The notes under the pieces are model-generated. The model saw only the letters and a list, made by a program, of their open reading frames with translations, was not told the origin of the DNA and did not search any database. A stretch of 46,639 bases of DNA from a virus (lineage: Duplodnaviria > Heunggongvirae > Uroviricota > Caudoviricetes), in IMG/VR virus record IMGVR_UViG_2529293141_000012; one strand, written 5' to 3'. The translations under genes were made by a program, and so were the position numbers. How positions within the stretch are numbered: the stretch's first letter is position 1; each line of letters begins with the position of its first letter. This document shows, one piece after another, positions 2,490 to 8,219 of the stretch.

Positions 2490-2685
2490 TTCTGATCCTC
2501 TTCAAAAGGCTACCTGTTACTGGTCGATTTAAGTCAACCTTTACCGCTGATTCGTGGAACAGATACTCTCTTCCATCCTTAACCGGAGGAGGGAATATCC
2601 TGCACTCGCGTACCCATCGACGAACTGTTTCAAGGCTTCTTGGGCGTCGCTGGCGTGCGTTCCACTCCTGAAGTGTCAAGTACAT
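2467..2685 (-). CDS. xis: Excisionase Xis
   Basis: 72 aa, MYLTLQEWNARQRRPRSLETVRRWVRECRIFPPPVKDGREYLF… matches lambda Xis; overlaps int start as in lambda. Confidence 0.95.
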   Translation of the reverse strand: MYLTLQEWNARQRRPRSLETVRRWVRECRIFPPPVKDGREYLFHESAVKVDLNRPVTGSLLKRIRNGKKAKS

Positions 2686-2707
2686 CGCAAAGTCTCCGCA
2701 ATTACAC

Positions 2708-2735
2708 GCAAGAAAAAACCGCCATCAGGCGGCTT
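2708..2735 (-). terminator. Putative intrinsic terminator (hairpin CCGCC-TGAT-GGCGG then T-run on minus strand)
   Basis: Inverted repeat overlapping the stop of the 55-aa ORF, followed on the minus strand by TTTTTTCTT. Confidence 0.35.
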
Positions 2736-2892
2736 GGTGTTCTTTCAGTTCTTCAATTCGAATATTGGTTACGTCTGCATGTGCTATCTGCGCCCACAGC
2801 ATCCAGTGGTCATAGCAGTCGCTGATGTTCTCGGCTTCGATAACTCTGTTGAATGGTTCTCCATTCCATTCACCTGTGACTCGGAAGTGCAT
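2725..2892 (-). CDS. Small hypothetical protein (55 aa) in the position of the lambda 55-aa ORF next to xis
   Basis: My own translation MHFRVTGEWNGEPFNRV…EELKEHQAA; spacing from xis (40 nt) and length (168 nt) match my recollection of lambda; below the ORF-track size cutoff. Confidence 0.4.
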   Translation of the reverse strand: MHFRVTGEWNGEPFNRVIEAENISDCYDHWMLWAQIAHADVTNIRIEELKEHQAA

Positions 2893-3134
2893 TTATCATC
2901 TCCATAAAACAAAACCCGCCGTAGCGAGTTCAGATAAAAGAAATCCTCGTCAGTGCGAGGATGCTGTTCATTGCTGCTATACACTTTTTTGCTCTCAACG
3001 TAAGCGGTAGCCCATTCTGTTGGGTTGGTGCAGTTGCTTTTAGGAAATGCTATTTACCCCTTAAATGTCGGCTGAAAGAGCTAAAATCCATGCAAAAAAT
3101 TTACGCAATTTTGTGTATTATTGTGCAGTAAGTA

Positions 3135-3737
3135 ATGAGCTATTTTCTGCGCAAAAAATGGATGGTAAATTTGTCCGGGTCAGGAAAAATTTTATGGGCG
3201 CTAAACATGAAAAAAGATTCGTATCCTTATTTGATTTGCATGACAGTTTCAGGGCTGATCTTTATTTTCCTTTTCTTCTGGTGGCGGGCAGATATCTACA
3301 GGGTCACGTTTCTTAATCAGAGTATATCCCACTATTACATTCTGTTTAGCATGGGAATAGCTTTTCTGTTATCTCTGTTTTGGGTTAAGAAGGGGATAGT
3401 AAAACAAAGCGGCTGGAAGAGTCTGTCAGCATACCTTAAGGTTTATGCAGGGATGTGCATATTTGCTGGATTTTTTCTGATTATACCCCTTACGACACTA
3501 ACTTATTTTTTGCCTGGAGAGACATCGTCTTATGTTGCACCGTATCGGTATACTTCCGGTAGTTCAAAAAGTTGTTCTGGAGCTGAGGTGGATGACCCCG
3601 ATCTACATGAGAATATTCGCATTTGCTATCCGTATGGCAATTATGAGTACGATAATATTATCTATGTTGAAAAGAAAATTAATATATTAGGTGCGGTAGT
3701 GACATATGCACAGACCGCGCGTGATGATACTGAATGA
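3135..3737 (+). CDS. Hypothetical integral membrane protein (accessory moron, opposite to the early-left operon)
   Basis: 200-aa ORF in AT-rich DNA; three predicted TM helices (e.g. LICMTVSGLIFIFLFFWW) plus a Cys/Tyr-rich C-terminal domain; alternative start at 3207 (MKKDSYPY…); a stem-loop follows at about 3770-3795. Confidence 0.55.
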   Translation: MSYFLRKKWMVNLSGSGKILWALNMKKDSYPYLICMTVSGLIFIFLFFWWRADIYRVTFLNQSISHYYILFSMGIAFLLSLFWVKKGIVKQSGWKSLSAYLKVYAGMCIFAGFFLIIPLTTLTYFLPGETSSYVAPYRYTSGSSKSCSGAEVDDPDLHENIRICYPYGNYEYDNIIYVEKKINILGAVVTYAQTARDDTE

Positions 3738-3947
3738 TATAGTATATAGCGGGCAAGTTTTAGTTAATTTATCGAGGTAATATAATTTACCTCGACTCGT
3801 TTGTTCTGGTATTAATATTTCGCTTTACGACCGATTTTTATCTGATGATATCATGCGGTTTTCATATACTGACTTACTGTCTTTTCTCCGTTAGCGATTT
3901 TCTCCTGCTCAGCGATGATTTTATCTTTGGCTTCTAGTTAATTTCGC

Positions 3948-4169
3948 TCACTTCGAACCTCTCTGTTTACTGATAAGCTCCAGATCTTGCTGGCAACTGG
4001 CACAAGTCCGACAACCCTGAACGGCCAGTCGTCTTCGTTCATCTATCGGATCGCCACACTCACAACAATGAGTGGCAGATATAGCCTGGTGGTTCAGGCG
4101 GCGCATTTTTATTGCTGTGTTGCGCTGTAATTCTTCAATTTCTGATGCTGAATCAATTATGTCTGCCAT
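3948..4169 (-). CDS. DksA/TraR-family C4 zinc-finger protein
   Basis: 73 aa with CxxC-x17-CxxC (CCECGDPIDERRRLAVQGCRTCASC), typical of phage or plasmid TraR/DksA-like proteins. Confidence 0.7.
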   Translation of the reverse strand: MADIIDSASEIEELQRNTAIKMRRLNHQAISATHCCECGDPIDERRRLAVQGCRTCASCQQDLELISKQRGSK

Positions 4170-4267
4170 CTTTCATTAATCCCTGAATTGTTGGTTAATA
4201 CGCTTGAGGGTGAATGCGAATAATAAAAAAGGAGCCTGTAGCTCCCTGATGATTTTGCTTTTCATGT

Positions 4268-4751: not shown

Positions 4752-4912
4752 ACAGCTCCCCGTTTATTATTTATCTCCTCAGCCAGCCGCTGTGCTTTCA
4801 GGGGATTTCTGATAACAGAAAGGCCGGGAAATACCCAGCCTCGCTTTGTAATGGAGTAGACGAAAGTGATCGCGCCTACCCGGATATTATCGTGAGGATG
4901 CGTCATCGCCAT
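4724..4912 (-). CDS. Small early-left protein, lambda orf60a-like
   Basis: 60-62 aa ([28 protein letters not shown]…); start overlaps the exo stop as in lambda. Confidence 0.55.
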
Positions 4913-5583
4913 TGCTCCCCAAATACAAAACCAATTTCAGCCAGTGCCTCGTCCATTTTTTCGATGAACTCCGGCACCATCTCGTCAAAACTCGCCATGT
5001 AATTTTCATCCCGCTCAACCACGACATAATGCAGGCCTTCACGCTTCATTCGTGGGTCATAGTTGGCAAAGTACCAGGCATCTTTTCGCGTCACCCACAT
5101 GCTGTACTGCACCTGGGCCATGTAAGCCGACTTTATGGCCTCGAAACCACCGAGCCGGAATTTCATGAAATCCCGGGAGGTAAACGGGCATTTCAGTTCA
5201 AGGCCGTTGCCGTCACTGCATAAACCATCGGGAGAGCAGGCGGTGCGCATACTTTCGTCGCGATAGATGATCGGGGATTCAGTAACATTCACGCCGGAAG
5301 TAAACTCAAACAGGGCTCTGGCGTCGTTCTCGTACTGTTTTCCCCAGGCCAGCGCCTTAGCATTAACTTCCGGAGCCACACCGGTGCAAACCTCAGCCAG
5401 CAGGGTGTGGAAGTAGGACATTTTCATGTCAGGCCACTTCTTTCCTGAGCGGGGCTTTGCTATCACGTTGTGAACTTCTGAAGCGGTGATGACGCCGAGC
5501 CGTAATTTGTGCCATGCATCATCCCCCTGTTCGACAGCTCTCACGTCGATCCCGGTACGCTGCAGGATAATGTCCGGTGTCAT
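4903..5583 (-). CDS. exo: Lambda exonuclease (Red-alpha)
   Basis: 226 aa, [40 protein letters not shown]… matches recalled lambda Exo. Confidence 0.97.
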
Positions 5584-6365
5584 GCTGCCACCTTCTGCTC
5601 AGTGGCTTTCTGTTTCAGGAATCCAAGAGCTTTCACTGCTTCGGCCTGTGTCAGTTCTGACGATGCGCGAATGTCGCGGCGAAATATCTGGGAACAGAGC
5701 GGCAATAAGTCGTCATCCCATGTTTTATCCAGGGCGATCAGCAGAGTGTTAATCTCCTGCATGGTTTCATCGTTAACCGGAGTGATGTCGCGTTCCGGCT
5801 GACGTTCTGCAGTGTATGCGGTATTTTCGACAATGCGCTCGGCTTCATCCTTGTCATAGATACCAGCAAATCCGAAGGCCAGACGGGCACACTGAATCAT
5901 GGCTTTATGACGTAACATCCGTTTGGGATGCGACTGCCACGGTCCGGTGATTTCTCTGCCTTCGCGGGTTTTGAATGGTTCGCGGCGGCATTCATCCATC
6001 CACTCGGTAACGCAGATCGGATGATTGCGGTCCTTGCGGTAAATCCGGCATGTGCAGGATTCATTGTCCTGCTCAAAGTCCATACCATCAAACTGCTGGT
6101 TTTCATTGATGATGCGGGACCAGCCATCAACGCCCACCACCGGAACGATGCCGTTCTGCTTATCAGGGAAGGCGTAAATTTCTTTCGTCCACGGATTAAG
6201 GCCGTACTGGTTGGCGACGATCAGCAATGCGATGAACTGCGCATCGCTGGCATCGCCTTTAAATGCCGTCTGGCGAAGAGTGGTGATCAGTTCCTGTGGG
6301 TCGACAGAATCCATGCCGACACGTTCAGCCAGCTTCCCAGCCAGCGTTGCGAGTGCTGTACTCAT
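5580..6365 (-). CDS. bet: Recombination protein Bet (Red-beta)
   Basis: 261 aa, [41 protein letters not shown]… matches lambda Bet. Confidence 0.97.
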
Positions 6366-7034: not shown

Positions 7035-7229
7035 AACTAAGCCGCCTCGTTGAAGCGACTAAGGTATGAAATGTTGAGTTAATTTCAGCTGGTCACACCG
7101 ACGTTCACGCGTCCGTTTCACCCCTCGCACTCCCCGAAGCCTGCTGAAATTCAAACTGCGGATCTAAGCGGTCATCGCAACGGTGAATCAGGTGGTTGCC
7201 GTATCGTTGTGTTGTTGCGATATGGTGAT

Positions 7230-7340
7230 AATAGCTATTGCTATTGGTGATATCAATACTTATTGCTATTAGTTGATGTGTTTTGATATTAAATGTTTGA
7301 TAGCAAAAAGAATTAATTTTGTGACTTGCATCGCATAGCG
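7230..7340 (-). promoter_or_regulatory. Putative OL/PL operator-promoter region
   Basis: Repeated ATTGCTATT motifs (also found in the cI-cro intergenic region), AT-rich, immediately downstream of the rex-position terminator. Confidence 0.3.
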
Positions 7341-7394
7341 ATAACTGAAGTGAGGTGTGGTGGTTTTTTGGACGGTTTGTGTGATGAGGGGAGG

Positions 7395-7425
7395 CAAAAG
7401 AAAACCCGGCACTGGGGCCGGGTTT
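7395..7425 (-). terminator. Intrinsic terminator ending the repressor-operon transcript
   Basis: Hairpin CCCGGC-ACTGGG-GCCGGG followed on the minus strand by TTTTCTTTTG. Confidence 0.55.
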
Positions 7426-7500
7426 AGATGGATAAGAAAGGGTAATAGGGAATGAAAAATCGCTTTGCGTAATGCAAGGTGGCGAGCAGTTTCTTAAGCA

Positions 7501-7941
7501 CTAAAGAAAAAAGTACATTGATAGCTTATAAAGACCTGTTCCTGCAGCGATGATTGCTGGAACACCAAGCAATACCGCAAGCTTTGCGTCTGAAATCTTT
7601 CTATCGACAGCATCGATGGAGGGTTTTTTGGCTAGTGAATCTTTTATTGAATCGAGTCGCTCCAGAACAGCGATCATGTTTCTGTCGATAGATTTGACAT
7701 CTGTCTTAAGCTCATCAACGTCACGTCGGATATAGGACACATCAGACTCAAGCTTTGCAACTTTCGATTCAAGCACATTATTACTCCCAGAGCCACCGCT
7801 ACCACTTGATTGTAGCATAGGTACATTACCGCCAGACATACCAGCTGATTGAGAAAATGCTGCAGTGTGCAAAGATGATGATCTTGCCGCTTGTTCAAGC
7901 TTTTCAGTTAGGTTTGGAGCTTCGTAATAACCGTGTTTCAT
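7501..7941 (-). CDS. Hypothetical tail-anchored membrane protein with coiled coil (rexB position)
   Basis: 146 aa; Gly/Ser-rich N-terminus, heptad-like segment LESKVAKLESDVSYIRRDVDELKTDVKSIDRNMIAVLERLDSIKDSL, C-terminal TM helix LAVLLGVPAIIAAGTGLYKL; AT-rich; co-oriented downstream of cI. Confidence 0.6.
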   Translation of the reverse strand: MKHGYYEAPNLTEKLEQAARSSSLHTAAFSQSAGMSGGNVPMLQSSGSGGSGSNNVLESKVAKLESDVSYIRRDVDELKTDVKSIDRNMIAVLERLDSIKDSLAKKPSIDAVDRKISDAKLAVLLGVPAIIAAGTGLYKLSMYFFL

Positions 7942-7949
7942 TGTTAATA

Positions 7950-8219
7950 TTATGACTTATTGGTTTTAGCTCTATCATGCTGATCGCGAATAAAGTCAGC
8001 GAGTTTAAGCATTAAATCTTCCGTCATGCGAATTGTTGCAATGTTGTACTTTACGTTTTCAGTGTCATTACTACCATCAGCGCCCCATTCTGTAACATGC
8101 TGAAAGAAAGATATGGAGCCTAAGCGATCGTCATCTTCCCCAAAAGATGAATATCCAAATGCATCAGCATATGCATCTACACAGTTATTTGATTTTTTTA
8201 TAAGTTTTTTATCACTCAT
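7950..8219 (-). CDS. Hypothetical acidic 89-aa protein (rexA position)
   Basis: ORF directly downstream of the repressor gene, 9 nt upstream of the membrane-protein gene; no recognisable family. Confidence 0.5.
   Translation of the reverse strand: MSDKKLIKKSNNCVDAYADAFGYSSFGEDDDRLGSISFFQHVTEWGADGSNDTENVKYNIATIRMTEDLMLKLADFIRDQHDRAKTNKS

What the first reader, a model, noticed from the sequence alone, without database searches (positions are those of the whole stretch)
3135..3737. Oppositely oriented membrane-protein moron between xis and the early-left genes
A 200-aa ORF in markedly AT-rich DNA is transcribed against the PL operon, where lambda carries ea8.5/ea22. It has about three transmembrane helices followed by a Cys/Tyr-rich soluble domain, its own upstream AT-rich region and a downstream stem-loop. 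Independently transcribed morons at this site are often lysogenic-conversion or superinfection-exclusion factors. An 83-aa ORF (3065-3316) overlaps its 5' end in another frame, so the true start (3135, 3162 or 3207) is uncertain.
Basis: partly seen in the sequence, partly recalled or inferred. Interest (0 to 1): 0.55.

Follow-up and report, generated by a model that had tools for sequence, protein, structure and literature searches.

The report
Prophage moron encoding orphan membrane protein
The ORF is real and is a self-contained "add-on" gene cassette, found in two unrelated kinds of E. coli prophage, that makes a small inner-membrane protein with a periplasmic domain; its function is untested, and blocking entry of other phages is the most likely role.

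Summary
An AT-rich gene on the + strand lies between xis/ORF55 and the leftward early genes of a phage-434-like prophage at attLambda (ybhC).

- **Start codon:** the true start is ATG 3207, giving 176 aa rather than 200. The overlapping 83-aa ORF is spurious.
- **Protein:** three transmembrane helices with the N-terminus inside. The C-terminal 70 residues form a confidently modelled five-stranded beta-barrel, predicted to be periplasmic. It carries the only two invariant cysteines of the family.
- **Known families:** there is no match in Pfam, NCBIfam, PADLOC or PDB, and no homology to P22 SieA.
- **Cassette:** window ~3070-3827 recurs at 67-76% DNA identity in P2-like prophages of E. coli and Salmonella, always between portal gene Q and replication gene A. 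It includes a conserved extended -10, three phased TTGTGCA repeats and, in the closest copy, the hairpin.
- **Already catalogued:** the Q-A region is the published old/tin hotspot. Rousset et al. 2022 list this family there as untested "System #4, 3 TM" with 470 occurrences.
- **Chromosomal relatives:** more distant homologues sit at genus-specific loci in other Enterobacterales, with no phage genes nearby.

So it is a genuine moron encoding an orphan envelope protein. Superinfection exclusion at the DNA-entry step is the best guess (about 0.4) and is unproven.

The parts
2989..3935 (.). Variable slot of the lambdoid prophage: the segment replaced in sister prophages that share both flanks
   Evidence: thousands of E. 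coli genomes match only query 1-299 (window 2690-2988) or query 1246/1247-1511 (window 3935/3936-4200); in strain F5 the same flanks enclose a 93-aa hypothetical gene and an ea22-like pseudogene instead.
3070..3827 (+). The mobile moron cassette (regulatory region + gene + hairpin)
   Evidence: blastn against the P2-like prophage locus L016 aligns window 3070-3827 at 76%. L005 aligns 3074-3705 at 71% and L004 aligns 3111-3705 at 71%. GC is 0.34-0.42.
3100..3129 (+). Three tandem 10-bp direct repeats (TTTACGCAAT TTTGTGTATT ATTGTGCAGT; family consensus wTTGTGCAGy); candidate binding array for an unknown regulator
   Evidence: the repeats are near-perfect in P2-like loci L109, L116 and L005, and present in L016 and L112. 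The phage 434 record annotates 3111-3124 as a CII site, but TTGY-N6-TTGY occurs at chance frequency in the window (9 found, 11.3 expected).
3163..3171 (+). Conserved extended -10 promoter element TGgTAAATT (inferred transcription start near 3178)
   Evidence: T124, G125, T127, A128, A129, T131 and T132 are invariant in six loci. TGnTAAnTT lies 44-48 nt before the ATG in all phage-borne copies whose start aligns, and in chromosomal Citrobacter and Cedecea. It reads TGCTATGAT in Pantoea and Erwinia. This is inferred, not mapped; the generic promoter scan did not list it because there is no good -35.
3135..3206 (+). Spurious N-terminal extension of the RefSeq/first-reader ORF (not translated)
   Evidence: substitutions against L016 fall 6/6/2 by codon position here, against 24/22/69 downstream. 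Homologues have in-frame stops 4-9 codons upstream of their ATG; all divergent homologues start at M25.
3196..3198 (+). Weak G-rich Shine-Dalgarno-like element 8 nt before ATG 3207
   Evidence: the invariant GGG column aligns with GGAG in L010 and L012 at the same spacing.
3207..3737 (+). Coding sequence of the 176-aa membrane protein (stop included)
   Evidence: It is identical in phages mEp332, 434 and 2B8, is ECs0804 in O157:H7 Sakai prophage Sp3, and is WP_000120065.1.
3228..3284 (+). Transmembrane helix 1 (residues 8-26)
3285..3329 (+). Short conserved loop 1 (IYRVTFLN motif), predicted periplasmic
   Evidence: I30, T34 and L36 are invariant and R32 is nearly invariant (176-aa numbering); mean K+R is 1.9 here against 4.4 in loop 2; short strand at residues 34-36.
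3330..3386 (+). Transmembrane helix 2 (residues 42-60)
3387..3440 (+). Lys-rich loop 2, predicted cytoplasmic
   Evidence: mean K+R is 4.4 over 24 homologues.
3441..3512 (+). Transmembrane helix 3 (residues 79-102)
3513..3734 (+). C-terminal five-stranded beta-barrel domain, predicted periplasmic; invariant Cys codons at 3573-3575 and 3624-3626
3772..3795 (+). 9-bp stem-loop downstream of the gene (candidate weak terminator)
   Evidence: It is partly conserved, with one compensatory change, in L016. The tail CTCGTTTGTT is only moderately T-rich.
2912..2962 (-). Two hairpins with T-runs on the - strand, matching terminator tL4 of phage 434; they end leftward transcripts after these have crossed the moron antisense
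   Evidence: 2931-2912 and 2962-2943. M60848 annotates t-L4 at the equivalent of window 2936-2966.
3065..3316 (+). 83-aa overlapping ORF: not a gene
   Evidence: three in-frame stops in L005; no start codon at the equivalent place in L016; no Pfam, PHROG or PADLOC match; only two sub-threshold NCBIfam matches (E about 0.07, far below the curated cut-offs).

Best explanation
**What it is (shown).** The feature is a genuine moron. It is a ~760-bp AT-rich cassette (window ~3070-3827) inserted against the direction of the leftward early operon of a 434-type lambdoid prophage.

**Regulatory signals (inferred from conservation).**
- It carries its own signals: three helically phased TTGTGCA repeats, an extended -10 at 3163-3171, a weak ribosome-binding site and a downstream hairpin.
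- The transcription start is probably near 3178, so translation starts at ATG 3207.

**The protein (predicted).**
- The 176-aa product inserts in the inner membrane with its N-terminus in the cytoplasm.
- It has three transmembrane helices.
- Its C-terminal ~70-residue five-stranded beta-barrel lies in the periplasm, probably held by a disulfide between the two invariant cysteines.
- Together with the conserved loop 1, this barrel forms the functional face.

**Mechanism (inferred, unproven).**
- The protein is made in the lysogen, when leftward phage transcription is off.
- It acts at the periplasmic face of the inner membrane to stop the genome of an incoming phage from crossing the envelope.
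- It would do this by binding a conserved host component, or the injection conduit that phages build there.
- That is superinfection exclusion at the DNA-entry step, working like P22 SieA, HK97 gp15 or T4 Imm/Sp without being related to them.
For: **Gene reality and start codon**
- Substitutions show strong third-position bias only downstream of 3207, and homologues have stops upstream of the start.
- Homologues at 23-78% identity all start at the same Met.

**Architecture**
- The full-length AlphaFold2 model has pLDDT 86.8 and the C-domain alone has pLDDT 92.4.
- The positive-inside count over 24 homologues is N-terminus 1.75, loop 1 1.9 and loop 2 4.4.
- The two cysteines are the only invariant residues apart from one glycine.
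- The periplasmic domain is the most conserved long segment, at 65% identity against 33-48% for the TM helices.

**Moron status**
- The cassette, including ~135 bp upstream, is shared with P2-like prophages; the hairpin is also shared with the closest copy, L016.
- Sister lambdoid prophages with the same flanks hold other cargo.
- GC is low.
- The extended -10 sits at a fixed distance from the ATG even in diverged loci.

**Location argument for an anti-phage role**
- In E. coli and Salmonella P2-like prophages the gene always lies between portal Q and gpA (15 of 15 IMG/VR loci).
- That is the old/tin hotspot of Rousset et al. 2022 (PMC9122126).
- A 52%-identical homologue is their 'System #4, 3 TM', with 470 occurrences.
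- Six of eight randomly chosen unknown cargos of the P4 hotspot proved defensive in PMC13586616.

**Precedent**
- HK97 gp15 is a moron-encoded inner-membrane exclusion protein whose homologues are mostly chromosomal (PMC3594210).

**Retention**
- The gene is intact in the decayed O157:H7 prophage Sp3, where int is a pseudogene and bet is truncated.
- At least 905 of 5426 complete E. coli genomes carry the locus.

**Expression lead**
Against: - **No functional test exists.** The family does not appear in the table of systems tested by Rousset et al..
- **No match to known exclusion or defence families.** PHROGs gives only phrog_1416 of unknown function, PADLOC gives nothing, and SieA hhalign probability is 0.1%.
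- **Many homologues are not phage-borne.** All 16 species-representative homologues outside E. coli lie at chromosomal loci without lambda or P2 hallmark genes. Synteny is conserved within a genus. That pattern fits a host envelope function as well as it fits domesticated defence.
- **The P2 hotspot also carries non-defence cargo,** such as partition systems and the cytolethal distending (CDT) toxin.
- **High conservation of the periplasmic domain is unusual** for a protein in an arms race with phage proteins.
- **The protein was not found** in the held supplementary tables of an O157:H7 proteome study.
- **Promoter, topology and disulfide are predictions only.**
Confidence: 0.4

Rival explanations
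1. An envelope or host-fitness factor that is not aimed at phages. The periplasmic domain would bind a conserved host periplasmic or inner-membrane component. Alternatively it would neutralise an incoming toxin such as a colicin, bacteriocin or contact-dependent effector, or a cell-wall hydrolase. Prophages would carry it as a lysogenic-conversion gene.
For: - Homologues at 36-56% identity in Citrobacter, Enterobacter, Klebsiella, Kosakonia, Phytobacter, Pseudescherichia, Cedecea, Pantoea, Erwinia and Serratia sit in ordinary chromosomal neighbourhoods.
- Their position is conserved within each genus.
- The periplasmic domain is the most conserved part, as expected for a conserved host or toxin ligand.
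- The P2 Q-A hotspot is known to hold virulence and maintenance cargo too.
- The regulated-looking promoter with phased repeats suggests a response to a host signal.
Against: - The locus differs between genera, which points to repeated horizontal acquisition rather than an ancestral housekeeping gene.
- In E. coli and Salmonella every copy examined is in a prophage accessory hotspot.
- There is no Pfam match to colicin-immunity or lysozyme-inhibitor families.
- There is no conserved partner gene.
Confidence: 0.3
2. An abortive-infection membrane effector. The protein would sense an event in the periplasm during phage entry and then permeabilise or depolarise the inner membrane, killing the infected cell.
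For: - Transmembrane proteins in phage and satellite hotspots are commonly viewed as suicide effectors (PMC9122126).
- It is a single-gene cassette in a defence hotspot.
Against: - There is no cytoplasmic or enzymatic domain and no partner sensor gene.
- The TM helices, which would form the pore, are the least conserved parts at 33-48% identity.
- Stable chromosomal copies under what looks like ordinary expression argue against a hair-trigger toxin.
Confidence: 0.1
3. A gene serving the phage's own life cycle. One example is a CII-activated function made during establishment of lysogeny, as the phage 434 GenBank annotation of a CII site at window 3111-3124 implies. Another is a lysis or injection accessory protein.
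For: - The 434 record marks TTGTGTATTATTGT as a CII-binding consensus just upstream of the gene.
- The repeats have the 10-bp phasing of CII sites.
Against: - TTGY-N6-TTGY occurs at chance frequency in the window.
- The repeats travel with the cassette into P2-like prophages, which are not known to encode a lambda-type CII (my background knowledge, not tested here).
- They lie about 35 bp further from the conserved -10 than CII geometry requires.
- Sister lambdoid prophages lack the gene entirely, so it is dispensable.
- Chromosomal homologues exist without any phage nearby.
Confidence: 0.05
4. A chance or decaying ORF with no function.
For: - The gene lies in AT-rich DNA and matches no named protein family (one search finds only PHROG phrog_1416, of unknown function).
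- The RefSeq and 434 annotations disagree on the start codon.
Against: - Substitutions show a purifying-selection signature of 24/22/69 by codon position.
- Full-length homologues extend down to 23% identity with invariant cysteines.
- The fold is confidently predicted.
- Hundreds of intact copies exist.
Confidence: 0.02

Closest known systems
'System #4' (no Pfam, single protein, '3 TM', 470 occurrences) in Table S5B of Rousset et al. 2022, cargo of the E. coli P2-like gpA-gpQ hotspot (PMC9122126)
   Same: It is a homologue: 52% identity over 168 residues, E = 5e-57. It has the same three-TM + C-domain layout and the same SCSGAxVDDPDL / ICYPYG motifs. Closer homologues of the window protein (59-80%) sit in the same hotspot.
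   Different: The window copy is in a lambdoid prophage, in the xis-to-exo accessory slot, as a single near-clonal allele (64 of 64 IMG/VR lambdoid loci at 97% identity or more). The catalogued system does not appear in the paper's table of tested systems, so no function was assigned.
P22 SieA (superinfection exclusion protein A)
   Same: It is a prophage-expressed stand-alone gene with its own promoter. The product is a 162-164-aa inner-membrane protein with three predicted TM helices and an uncertain start codon, and it blocks DNA injection (PMC10883804; P22 annotation). Size, membrane architecture and stand-alone genetics are alike.
   Different: No sequence or profile similarity (hhalign probability 0.1%). 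The conserved SieA motif FxRYPxEAxxFNK is C-terminal and predicted cytoplasmic. Here the conserved C-terminal domain is a beta-barrel predicted to be periplasmic, with a Cys pair. SieA TM spacing also differs.
HK97 gp15 (the original 'moron'; YebO-like exclusion protein)
   Same: It is a moron with its own signals and a deviating GC content. It encodes a small inner-membrane protein that excludes phages at genome entry. Most of its homologues are chromosomal genes of Enterobacteriaceae rather than phage genes (PMC3594210), which is the same phage/chromosome split seen here.
   Different: It belongs to an unrelated family: PHROGs gives no match other than phrog_1416. gp15 is much smaller and sits inside the tail operon, not in the early-left region.
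Lambda ea8.5/ea22 region and P2 old/tin: accessory slots of temperate coliphages
   Same: The cassette occupies the same two positions. One is between xis and exo in lambdoid phages, where a sister prophage has an ea22-like remnant. The other is between gpA and gpQ in P2-like phages.
   Different: The proteins are unrelated. ea genes are transcribed with the PL operon, whereas this gene is transcribed against it.
Small OB/cold-shock-like beta-barrels, including membrane-associated DUF1093 proteins (PDB 3npp, 2k5q)

Membership tests
Moron (Juhala/Hendrix definition as summarised in PMC3594210) | Extra DNA relative to otherwise collinear related phages | tested here: met
   the same flanks (ORF55 and the DksA/TraR gene) enclose different cargo in strain F5. 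The slot is window ~2989-3935.
Moron (Juhala/Hendrix definition as summarised in PMC3594210) | Base composition different from neighbouring genes | tested here: met
   GC is 0.34-0.42 against 0.50-0.55 in exo/bet.
Moron (Juhala/Hendrix definition as summarised in PMC3594210) | Own promoter | tested here: inconclusive
   A conserved extended -10 (TGnTAAATT) lies 44-48 nt before the ATG across phage-borne and some chromosomal copies. It was not found by the generic sigma-70 scan, and no transcription-start data exist.
Moron (Juhala/Hendrix definition as summarised in PMC3594210) | Own terminator | tested here: inconclusive
   A 9-bp hairpin at 3772-3795 has a weak T-tail and a z-score of -1.47. 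It is partly conserved in L016.
Moron (Juhala/Hendrix definition as summarised in PMC3594210) | Horizontal spread among unrelated phage genomes as an independent unit | tested here: met
   the same cassette occurs in lambdoid (64 loci) and P2-like (15 loci) prophages.
Moron (Juhala/Hendrix definition as summarised in PMC3594210) | Expression from the repressed prophage | not testable with these tools
P22 SieA family | Sequence or profile homology to SieA types A-C | tested here: not met
   hhalign probability is 0.1%; no PHROG match other than phrog_1416.
P22 SieA family | Conserved C-terminal cytoplasmic motif FxRYPxEAxxFNK | tested here: not met
   The motif is absent from alignments A1 and A6. 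The C-terminus here is a beta-barrel predicted to be periplasmic.
P22 SieA family | Small inner-membrane protein with three TM helices | tested here: met
   This is prediction only; localisation was not measured.
P22 SieA family | Blocks DNA injection of superinfecting phage | not testable with these tools
   This needs plating, potassium-efflux and DNA-entry assays.
Known anti-phage defence systems (PADLOC-DB v2.0.0) | Match to any defence protein model | tested here: not met
   no family matches at E up to 1.
Rousset et al. 2022 P2-hotspot 'System #4 (3 TM)' | Homology to the representative protein | tested here: met
   52% identity, E = 5e-57, over 168 of 176 residues.
Rousset et al. 2022 P2-hotspot 'System #4 (3 TM)' | Location between gpA and gpQ of a P2-like prophage | tested here: not met
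   The window copy is in a lambdoid prophage between xis and exo. Its closest non-lambdoid relatives (59-80% identity) do lie between gpQ and gpA.
NfeD-like proteins (TM helices + C-terminal OB-fold; considered because of the similar layout) | Pfam NfeD match, or structural match of the C-domain to NfeD OB domains | tested here: not met
Pore-forming colicin or microcin immunity proteins (considered because they are small three- to four-TM inner-membrane proteins) | Match to a Pfam or NCBIfam immunity family | tested here: not met
   no match. No bacteriocin gene lies nearby in any context examined.

The most novel reading that the evidence does not exclude
This is the founding member of an uncharacterised family of periplasm-facing phage-exclusion proteins. 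It consists of a three-TM anchor that presents a disulfide-bonded OB-like barrel to the periplasm.

It would block genome entry by binding a conserved host inner-membrane or periplasmic entry factor rather than a phage protein. That would explain why the domain is so conserved, and why the same cassette serves siphovirus (lambdoid) prophages, myovirus (P2-like) prophages and domesticated chromosomal copies.

Its expression would be set by an unknown regulator that binds three phased TTGTGCA repeats. If so, one of the commonest cargos of two classical coliphage accessory hotspots is a new envelope-level defence. It is present in phage 434, in O157:H7 Sp3, and in at least 17% of complete E. coli genomes.
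Probability: 0.3. Interest if true: 0.6.

Novelty: new member of a known kind. Interest (0 to 1): 0.4.

Why it matters
- **Prevalence:** the gene is very common. At least 905 of 5426 complete E. coli genomes carry the lambdoid copy. A homologue is the fourth most frequent cargo of the P2 hotspot. It is also present in the classical phage 434 and in O157:H7.
- **No assigned family or function:** it has no Pfam family, no name and no tested function.
- **What this work adds:** the correct start codon, the likely topology, the cassette limits and the likely promoter. Cloning and testing are therefore straightforward.
- **If it excludes phages:** it would add a new family to the few known proteins that act at the DNA-entry step. 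It could also point to a host factor that phages need in order to cross the periplasm.
- **If it does not:** it would be a counter-example to the habit of reading every hotspot cargo as a defence gene.

Tried and rejected
- **Family searches:** Pfam, NCBIfam and PADLOC scans of the 200-aa ORF gave nothing significant. PHROGs gave only phrog_1416, of unknown function. That 90-aa profile covers residues 113-200; my guess, not checked, is that its members were annotated from an internal Met.
- **PDB sequence search:** a profile search gave nothing better than E = 0.35.
- **SieA homology:** rejected by hhalign.
- **Deeper homology searches:** a search of 1.8 billion cluster representatives and a profile search with 33 sequences found no relative carrying any Pfam domain. 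In the genome scan the family is confined to Enterobacterales.
- **CII-site annotation in the 434 record:** not supported statistically.
- **Conserved partner gene:** none. Downstream neighbours differ between genera: an acetyltransferase-like ORF by its sequence, an unknown ORF, and what looks like an integrase fragment.
- **EDL933 locus tag:** I could not confirm it directly because NC_002655 is not in the collection.
- **Lipoprotein signal:** rejected from the sequence. The residue before the N-terminal Cys is Ile, and that Cys is not conserved.
Full report
**Setting.** The window begins inside ybhC (1-1284, - strand) and continues into a lambdoid prophage integrated at attLambda.
- On the - strand lie int 1419-2489, xis 2467-2685, ORF55 2725-2892, a DksA/TraR-type zinc-finger gene 3948-4169, exo 4903-5583 and bet 5580-6365.
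- The stretch 2900-3950 is 100% identical in many E. coli chromosomes, including strain 042. It is 98.9-99.9% identical in phages mEp332, 2B8 and 434.
- At least 905 of 5426 complete E. coli genomes hold 80% or more of it.
- RefSeq calls the product a hypothetical protein (WP_000120065.1, start 3135). The phage 434 record calls it a putative membrane protein, starting at a TTG equivalent to window 3171.
- The old partial 434 sequence M60848 annotated yet another frame there.

- The 200-aa ORF, its orientation against all neighbours, the low GC (0.34-0.42 against 0.50-0.55) and the three hydrophobic segments are all present.
- So are the Cys/Tyr-rich soluble tail, the 9-bp stem-loop at 3772-3795 and the overlapping 83-aa ORF.

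**Start codon.**
- Homologues at 42-78% identity from Salmonella, Enterobacter, Klebsiella and Cedecea are 169-180 aa long. They all begin at the Met equivalent to M25 of the long ORF, which is ATG 3207.
- In four homologous loci an in-frame stop lies 4-9 codons upstream of that ATG.
- Substitutions between the window and L016 fall 6/6/2 on codon positions 1/2/3 in 3135-3206, but 24/22/69 in 3207-3737. Against L005 the figures are 11/9/12 and 41/25/91.
- The protein is therefore 176 aa (3207-3737).
- The 83-aa frame has three stops in L005 and no start in L016, so it is not a gene.
- The 56-aa ORF at 2961-3131, which the 434 record calls a membrane protein, starts about 110 bp outside the conserved cassette and overlaps only its first ~60 bp. 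It matches nothing.

**The protein.**
- AlphaFold2 with a 24-sequence alignment gives pLDDT 86.8. It shows helices at 5-29, 38-61 and 70-101, then five strands.
- The C-terminal 74 residues modelled alone give pLDDT 92.4.
- Mean Lys+Arg counts over 24 homologues are 1.75 at the N-terminus, 1.9 in loop 1 and 4.4 in loop 2. The N-terminus and loop 2 should therefore be cytoplasmic, and loop 1 and the C-domain periplasmic.
- Every member has exactly two cysteines in the C-domain, and many have no others.
- In a 33-sequence alignment reaching 23% identity, the only invariant residues are C123, C140 and G162.
- The two cysteines flank one beta-hairpin, which fits a periplasmic disulfide. This is an inference; I could not inspect coordinates.
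- The C-domain is the most conserved long segment, at 65% mean pairwise identity. The TM helices are the least conserved, at 33-48%. Function therefore lies on the periplasmic face.
- No Pfam, NCBIfam, PADLOC or PDB sequence match exists.
- Two deep searches found no relative with any Pfam domain.
- The representatives search found only 51 clusters in 1.8 billion. In the species-representative genome scan, every true hit is from Enterobacterales. The one 'Nanosynbacter' hit is a mis-binned E. coli contig.

**It is a mobile cassette.** DNA similarity between the window and P2-like prophage loci covers:
- window 3070-3827 against E. coli L016, at 76%;
- window 3074-3705 against Salmonella L005;
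- window 3111-3705 against Salmonella L004.

This includes about 135 bp upstream of the ATG and, in L016, the hairpin, with one compensatory change.

Within the lambdoid lineage the slot is variable.
- Thousands of genomes share only the left flank (up to window 2988) or only the right flank (from 3935/3936).
- Strain F5 has the same flanks around a 93-aa gene and an ea22-like remnant.

**Regulatory region.** Two conserved features stand out.
- The first is an extended -10, TGnTAAATT, at window 3163-3171.
  - It lies 44-48 nt before the ATG in every phage-borne copy whose start aligns.
  - It is also present in chromosomal Citrobacter and Cedecea, and reads TGCTATGAT in Pantoea and Erwinia.
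- The second is three tandem 10-bp repeats with consensus wTTGTGCAGy, at window 3100-3129.
  - They are degenerate in the window and near-perfect in L109, L116 and L005.
  - If transcription starts near 3178, they are centred near -53, -63 and -73.
- This geometry places the start of transcription downstream of the candidate starts 3135, 3162 and 3171, which agrees with 3207.
- The 434 record labels part of the repeats as a CII site. That pattern is at chance frequency in the window (9 observed, 11.3 expected). The repeats also accompany the cassette into P2-like phages. Which factor binds them is unexplained.
- Leftward (PL) transcripts would cross the gene antisense before reaching the tL4 hairpins at 2912-2962. 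The gene should therefore be favoured in the lysogen and suppressed during lytic growth. This is an inference.

**Where else the family lives.**
- E. coli P0039 (78% identity) and Salmonella P0043 (71%) and P0048 (59%) lie in P2-like prophages, directly after portal gene Q and before gpA.
- In IMG/VR, 64 loci are lambdoid, and all are at least 97% identical. That is one near-clonal allele.
- Another 15 IMG/VR loci are P2-like, at 47-80% identity. In the 14 where both flanking genes are held, the gene lies between Q and gpA.
- Rousset et al. 2022 defined exactly this cos-proximal gpA-gpQ region, home of old and tin, as a hotspot rich in anti-phage systems. It also contains partition systems and a toxin (PMC9122126).
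- Their Table S5B lists 'System #4': no Pfam, one protein, '3 TM', 470 occurrences. Its representative is 52% identical to the window protein (E = 5e-57).
- That sequence appears only in the catalogue and not in their table of tested constructs. The family is therefore known as a sequence and untested as a function.
- More distant homologues (36-56%) in 16 other Enterobacterales species have no lambda or P2 hallmark genes within 7 kb.
- They sit at positions conserved within a genus but different between genera, and they have no conserved partner gene.
  - Enterobacter: next to a GGDEF gene and an AI-2E transporter.
  - Phytobacter and Kosakonia: a second shared locus.
  - Pantoea and Erwinia: a third.
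  - Serratia: a fourth.
  - Cedecea and Pseudescherichia: near yccA.
- This looks like repeated acquisition followed by retention.
- The same process is visible in O157:H7, where prophage Sp3/CP-933K has a broken int and a truncated bet but an intact ECs0804.

- EDL933 numbering skips ninE (60 aa) and ninF (56 aa) but includes the 71-aa holin. I worked this out by comparing.
- The mapping is my inference, perhaps 80% safe.

**Interpretation.**
- Firmly established: this is a real, selected gene on an independently mobile, AT-rich cassette. In other words it is a moron, encoding an orphan three-TM protein.
- Well supported but only predicted: N-in topology, a periplasmic disulfide-bonded barrel, and its own regulated promoter.
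- The function is inferred. I favour superinfection exclusion at the genome-entry step (about 0.4), for three reasons.
  - Every E. coli or Salmonella copy sits in one of two classical accessory/defence slots.
  - The architecture (small, inner membrane, periplasm-facing, stand-alone, prophage-borne) is that of P22 SieA, HK97 gp15 and T4 Imm/Sp (PMC10883804 and PMC3594210; T4 Imm/Sp from my own knowledge).
  - gp15 sets a precedent for an exclusion moron whose relatives are mostly chromosomal.
- It is not a member of any of those families.
- The main rival (about 0.3) is an envelope factor unrelated to phages. This is supported by the syntenic chromosomal copies and by the strong conservation of the periplasmic domain.
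- An abortive-infection effector, a phage life-cycle function and a non-gene are less likely, for the reasons given under rival explanations.

**Verdict.** The finding is correct and was sensibly interpreted. The object is an ordinary kind of thing, a moron, carrying an uncharacterised but very widespread protein family that others have already catalogued without testing. Interest is moderate: it is not surprising to a specialist, but it is a clean, common and directly testable candidate.

Noticed in passing
window 3100-3129; L109, L116, L005, L016 and L112 at about -100 to -70 from their ATG: There are three tandem, helically phased 10-bp repeats with consensus wTTGTGCAGy. They lie about 35 bp upstream of the conserved extended -10 of the cassette and travel with it between lambdoid and P2-like prophages. 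The binding factor is unknown. The 434 GenBank record calls part of this a CII site, which the statistics do not support.
   Followed up: partly
window 2685-2725, compared with L001 2347-2825 (phage 434): Phage 434 carries a 114-codon ORF (ORF114, CPT_434_33) between xis and ORF55. The window prophage and E. coli 042 lack it. This is a second small variable slot immediately left of the moron slot.
   Followed up: no
window 2912-2962 (- strand): Two adjacent hairpins with T-runs on the - strand correspond to terminator tL4 of the old 434 sequence M60848. They lie between the moron and ORF55, so leftward transcripts cross the moron antisense before terminating.
   Followed up: partly
window 2961-3131 (+): A 56-aa ORF is annotated in the phage 434 record as a 'putative membrane protein' (CPT_434_35). 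It starts about 110 bp outside the conserved cassette (from ~3070), overlaps only its first ~60 bp, and has no match in the PHROG, PADLOC or NCBIfam scans. It is probably not a gene.
   Followed up: partly
window 7501-7941 (-) and 7950-8219 (-): A second AT-rich patch (GC 0.35-0.44, with a sharp GC-skew swing at 7200-7650) lies left of kil. It encodes a 146-aa protein that looks, from its sequence, like a coiled coil with a hydrophobic C-terminal anchor. That protein matches only the C-terminal half of phrog_3556 (positions 128-265 of 276), so it may be truncated. The patch also encodes an 89-aa protein (phrog_4231). Both are of unknown function.
   Followed up: partly
L020 and L021 (E. coli O157:H7 MB9-1 and Sakai, prophage Sp3/CP-933K): In O157:H7 the prophage at ybhC is decayed: int is frameshifted or a pseudogene, bet is truncated, and the immunity region is missing. 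The membrane-protein gene (ECs0804) is nevertheless intact at 98% identity. The same prophage carries lpxR (lipid A 3'-O-deacylase) and pphA.
   Followed up: partly
L022 (JARKOR010000073.1, labelled MAG: Candidatus Nanosynbacter sp.): A 3.5-kb contig binned as a Nanosynbacter (Saccharibacteria) genome carries this E. coli prophage segment at 97-99% protein identity (membrane protein, exo, bet). It is almost certainly a binning contaminant.
   Followed up: no
H56, NZ_CP158441.1 (E. coli S115): In one genome the 2690-4200 region matches in two pieces spread over 2.6 kb, with an IS903B (IS5-like) transposase annotated under the match. That indicates an IS insertion inside this locus.
   Followed up: no
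L004, L006, L010, L011 and L012, about 7100-7890: In Salmonella P2-like prophages the membrane-protein gene is often preceded in the Q-A hotspot by one or two small co-directional ORFs (81 or 123 aa, and 119 aa) with no Pfam match. In L005 it is followed by a YafO-toxin gene. I did not examine whether these are separate cargo or work together with it.
   Followed up: no
L017 8744-9250 (Cedecea neteri): Judged from its sequence (it was not scanned against any family library), the ORF just downstream of the chromosomal Cedecea homologue looks like a C-terminal fragment of a tyrosine recombinase. This hints that the 'chromosomal' copy is a remnant of a mobile element.
   Followed up: no
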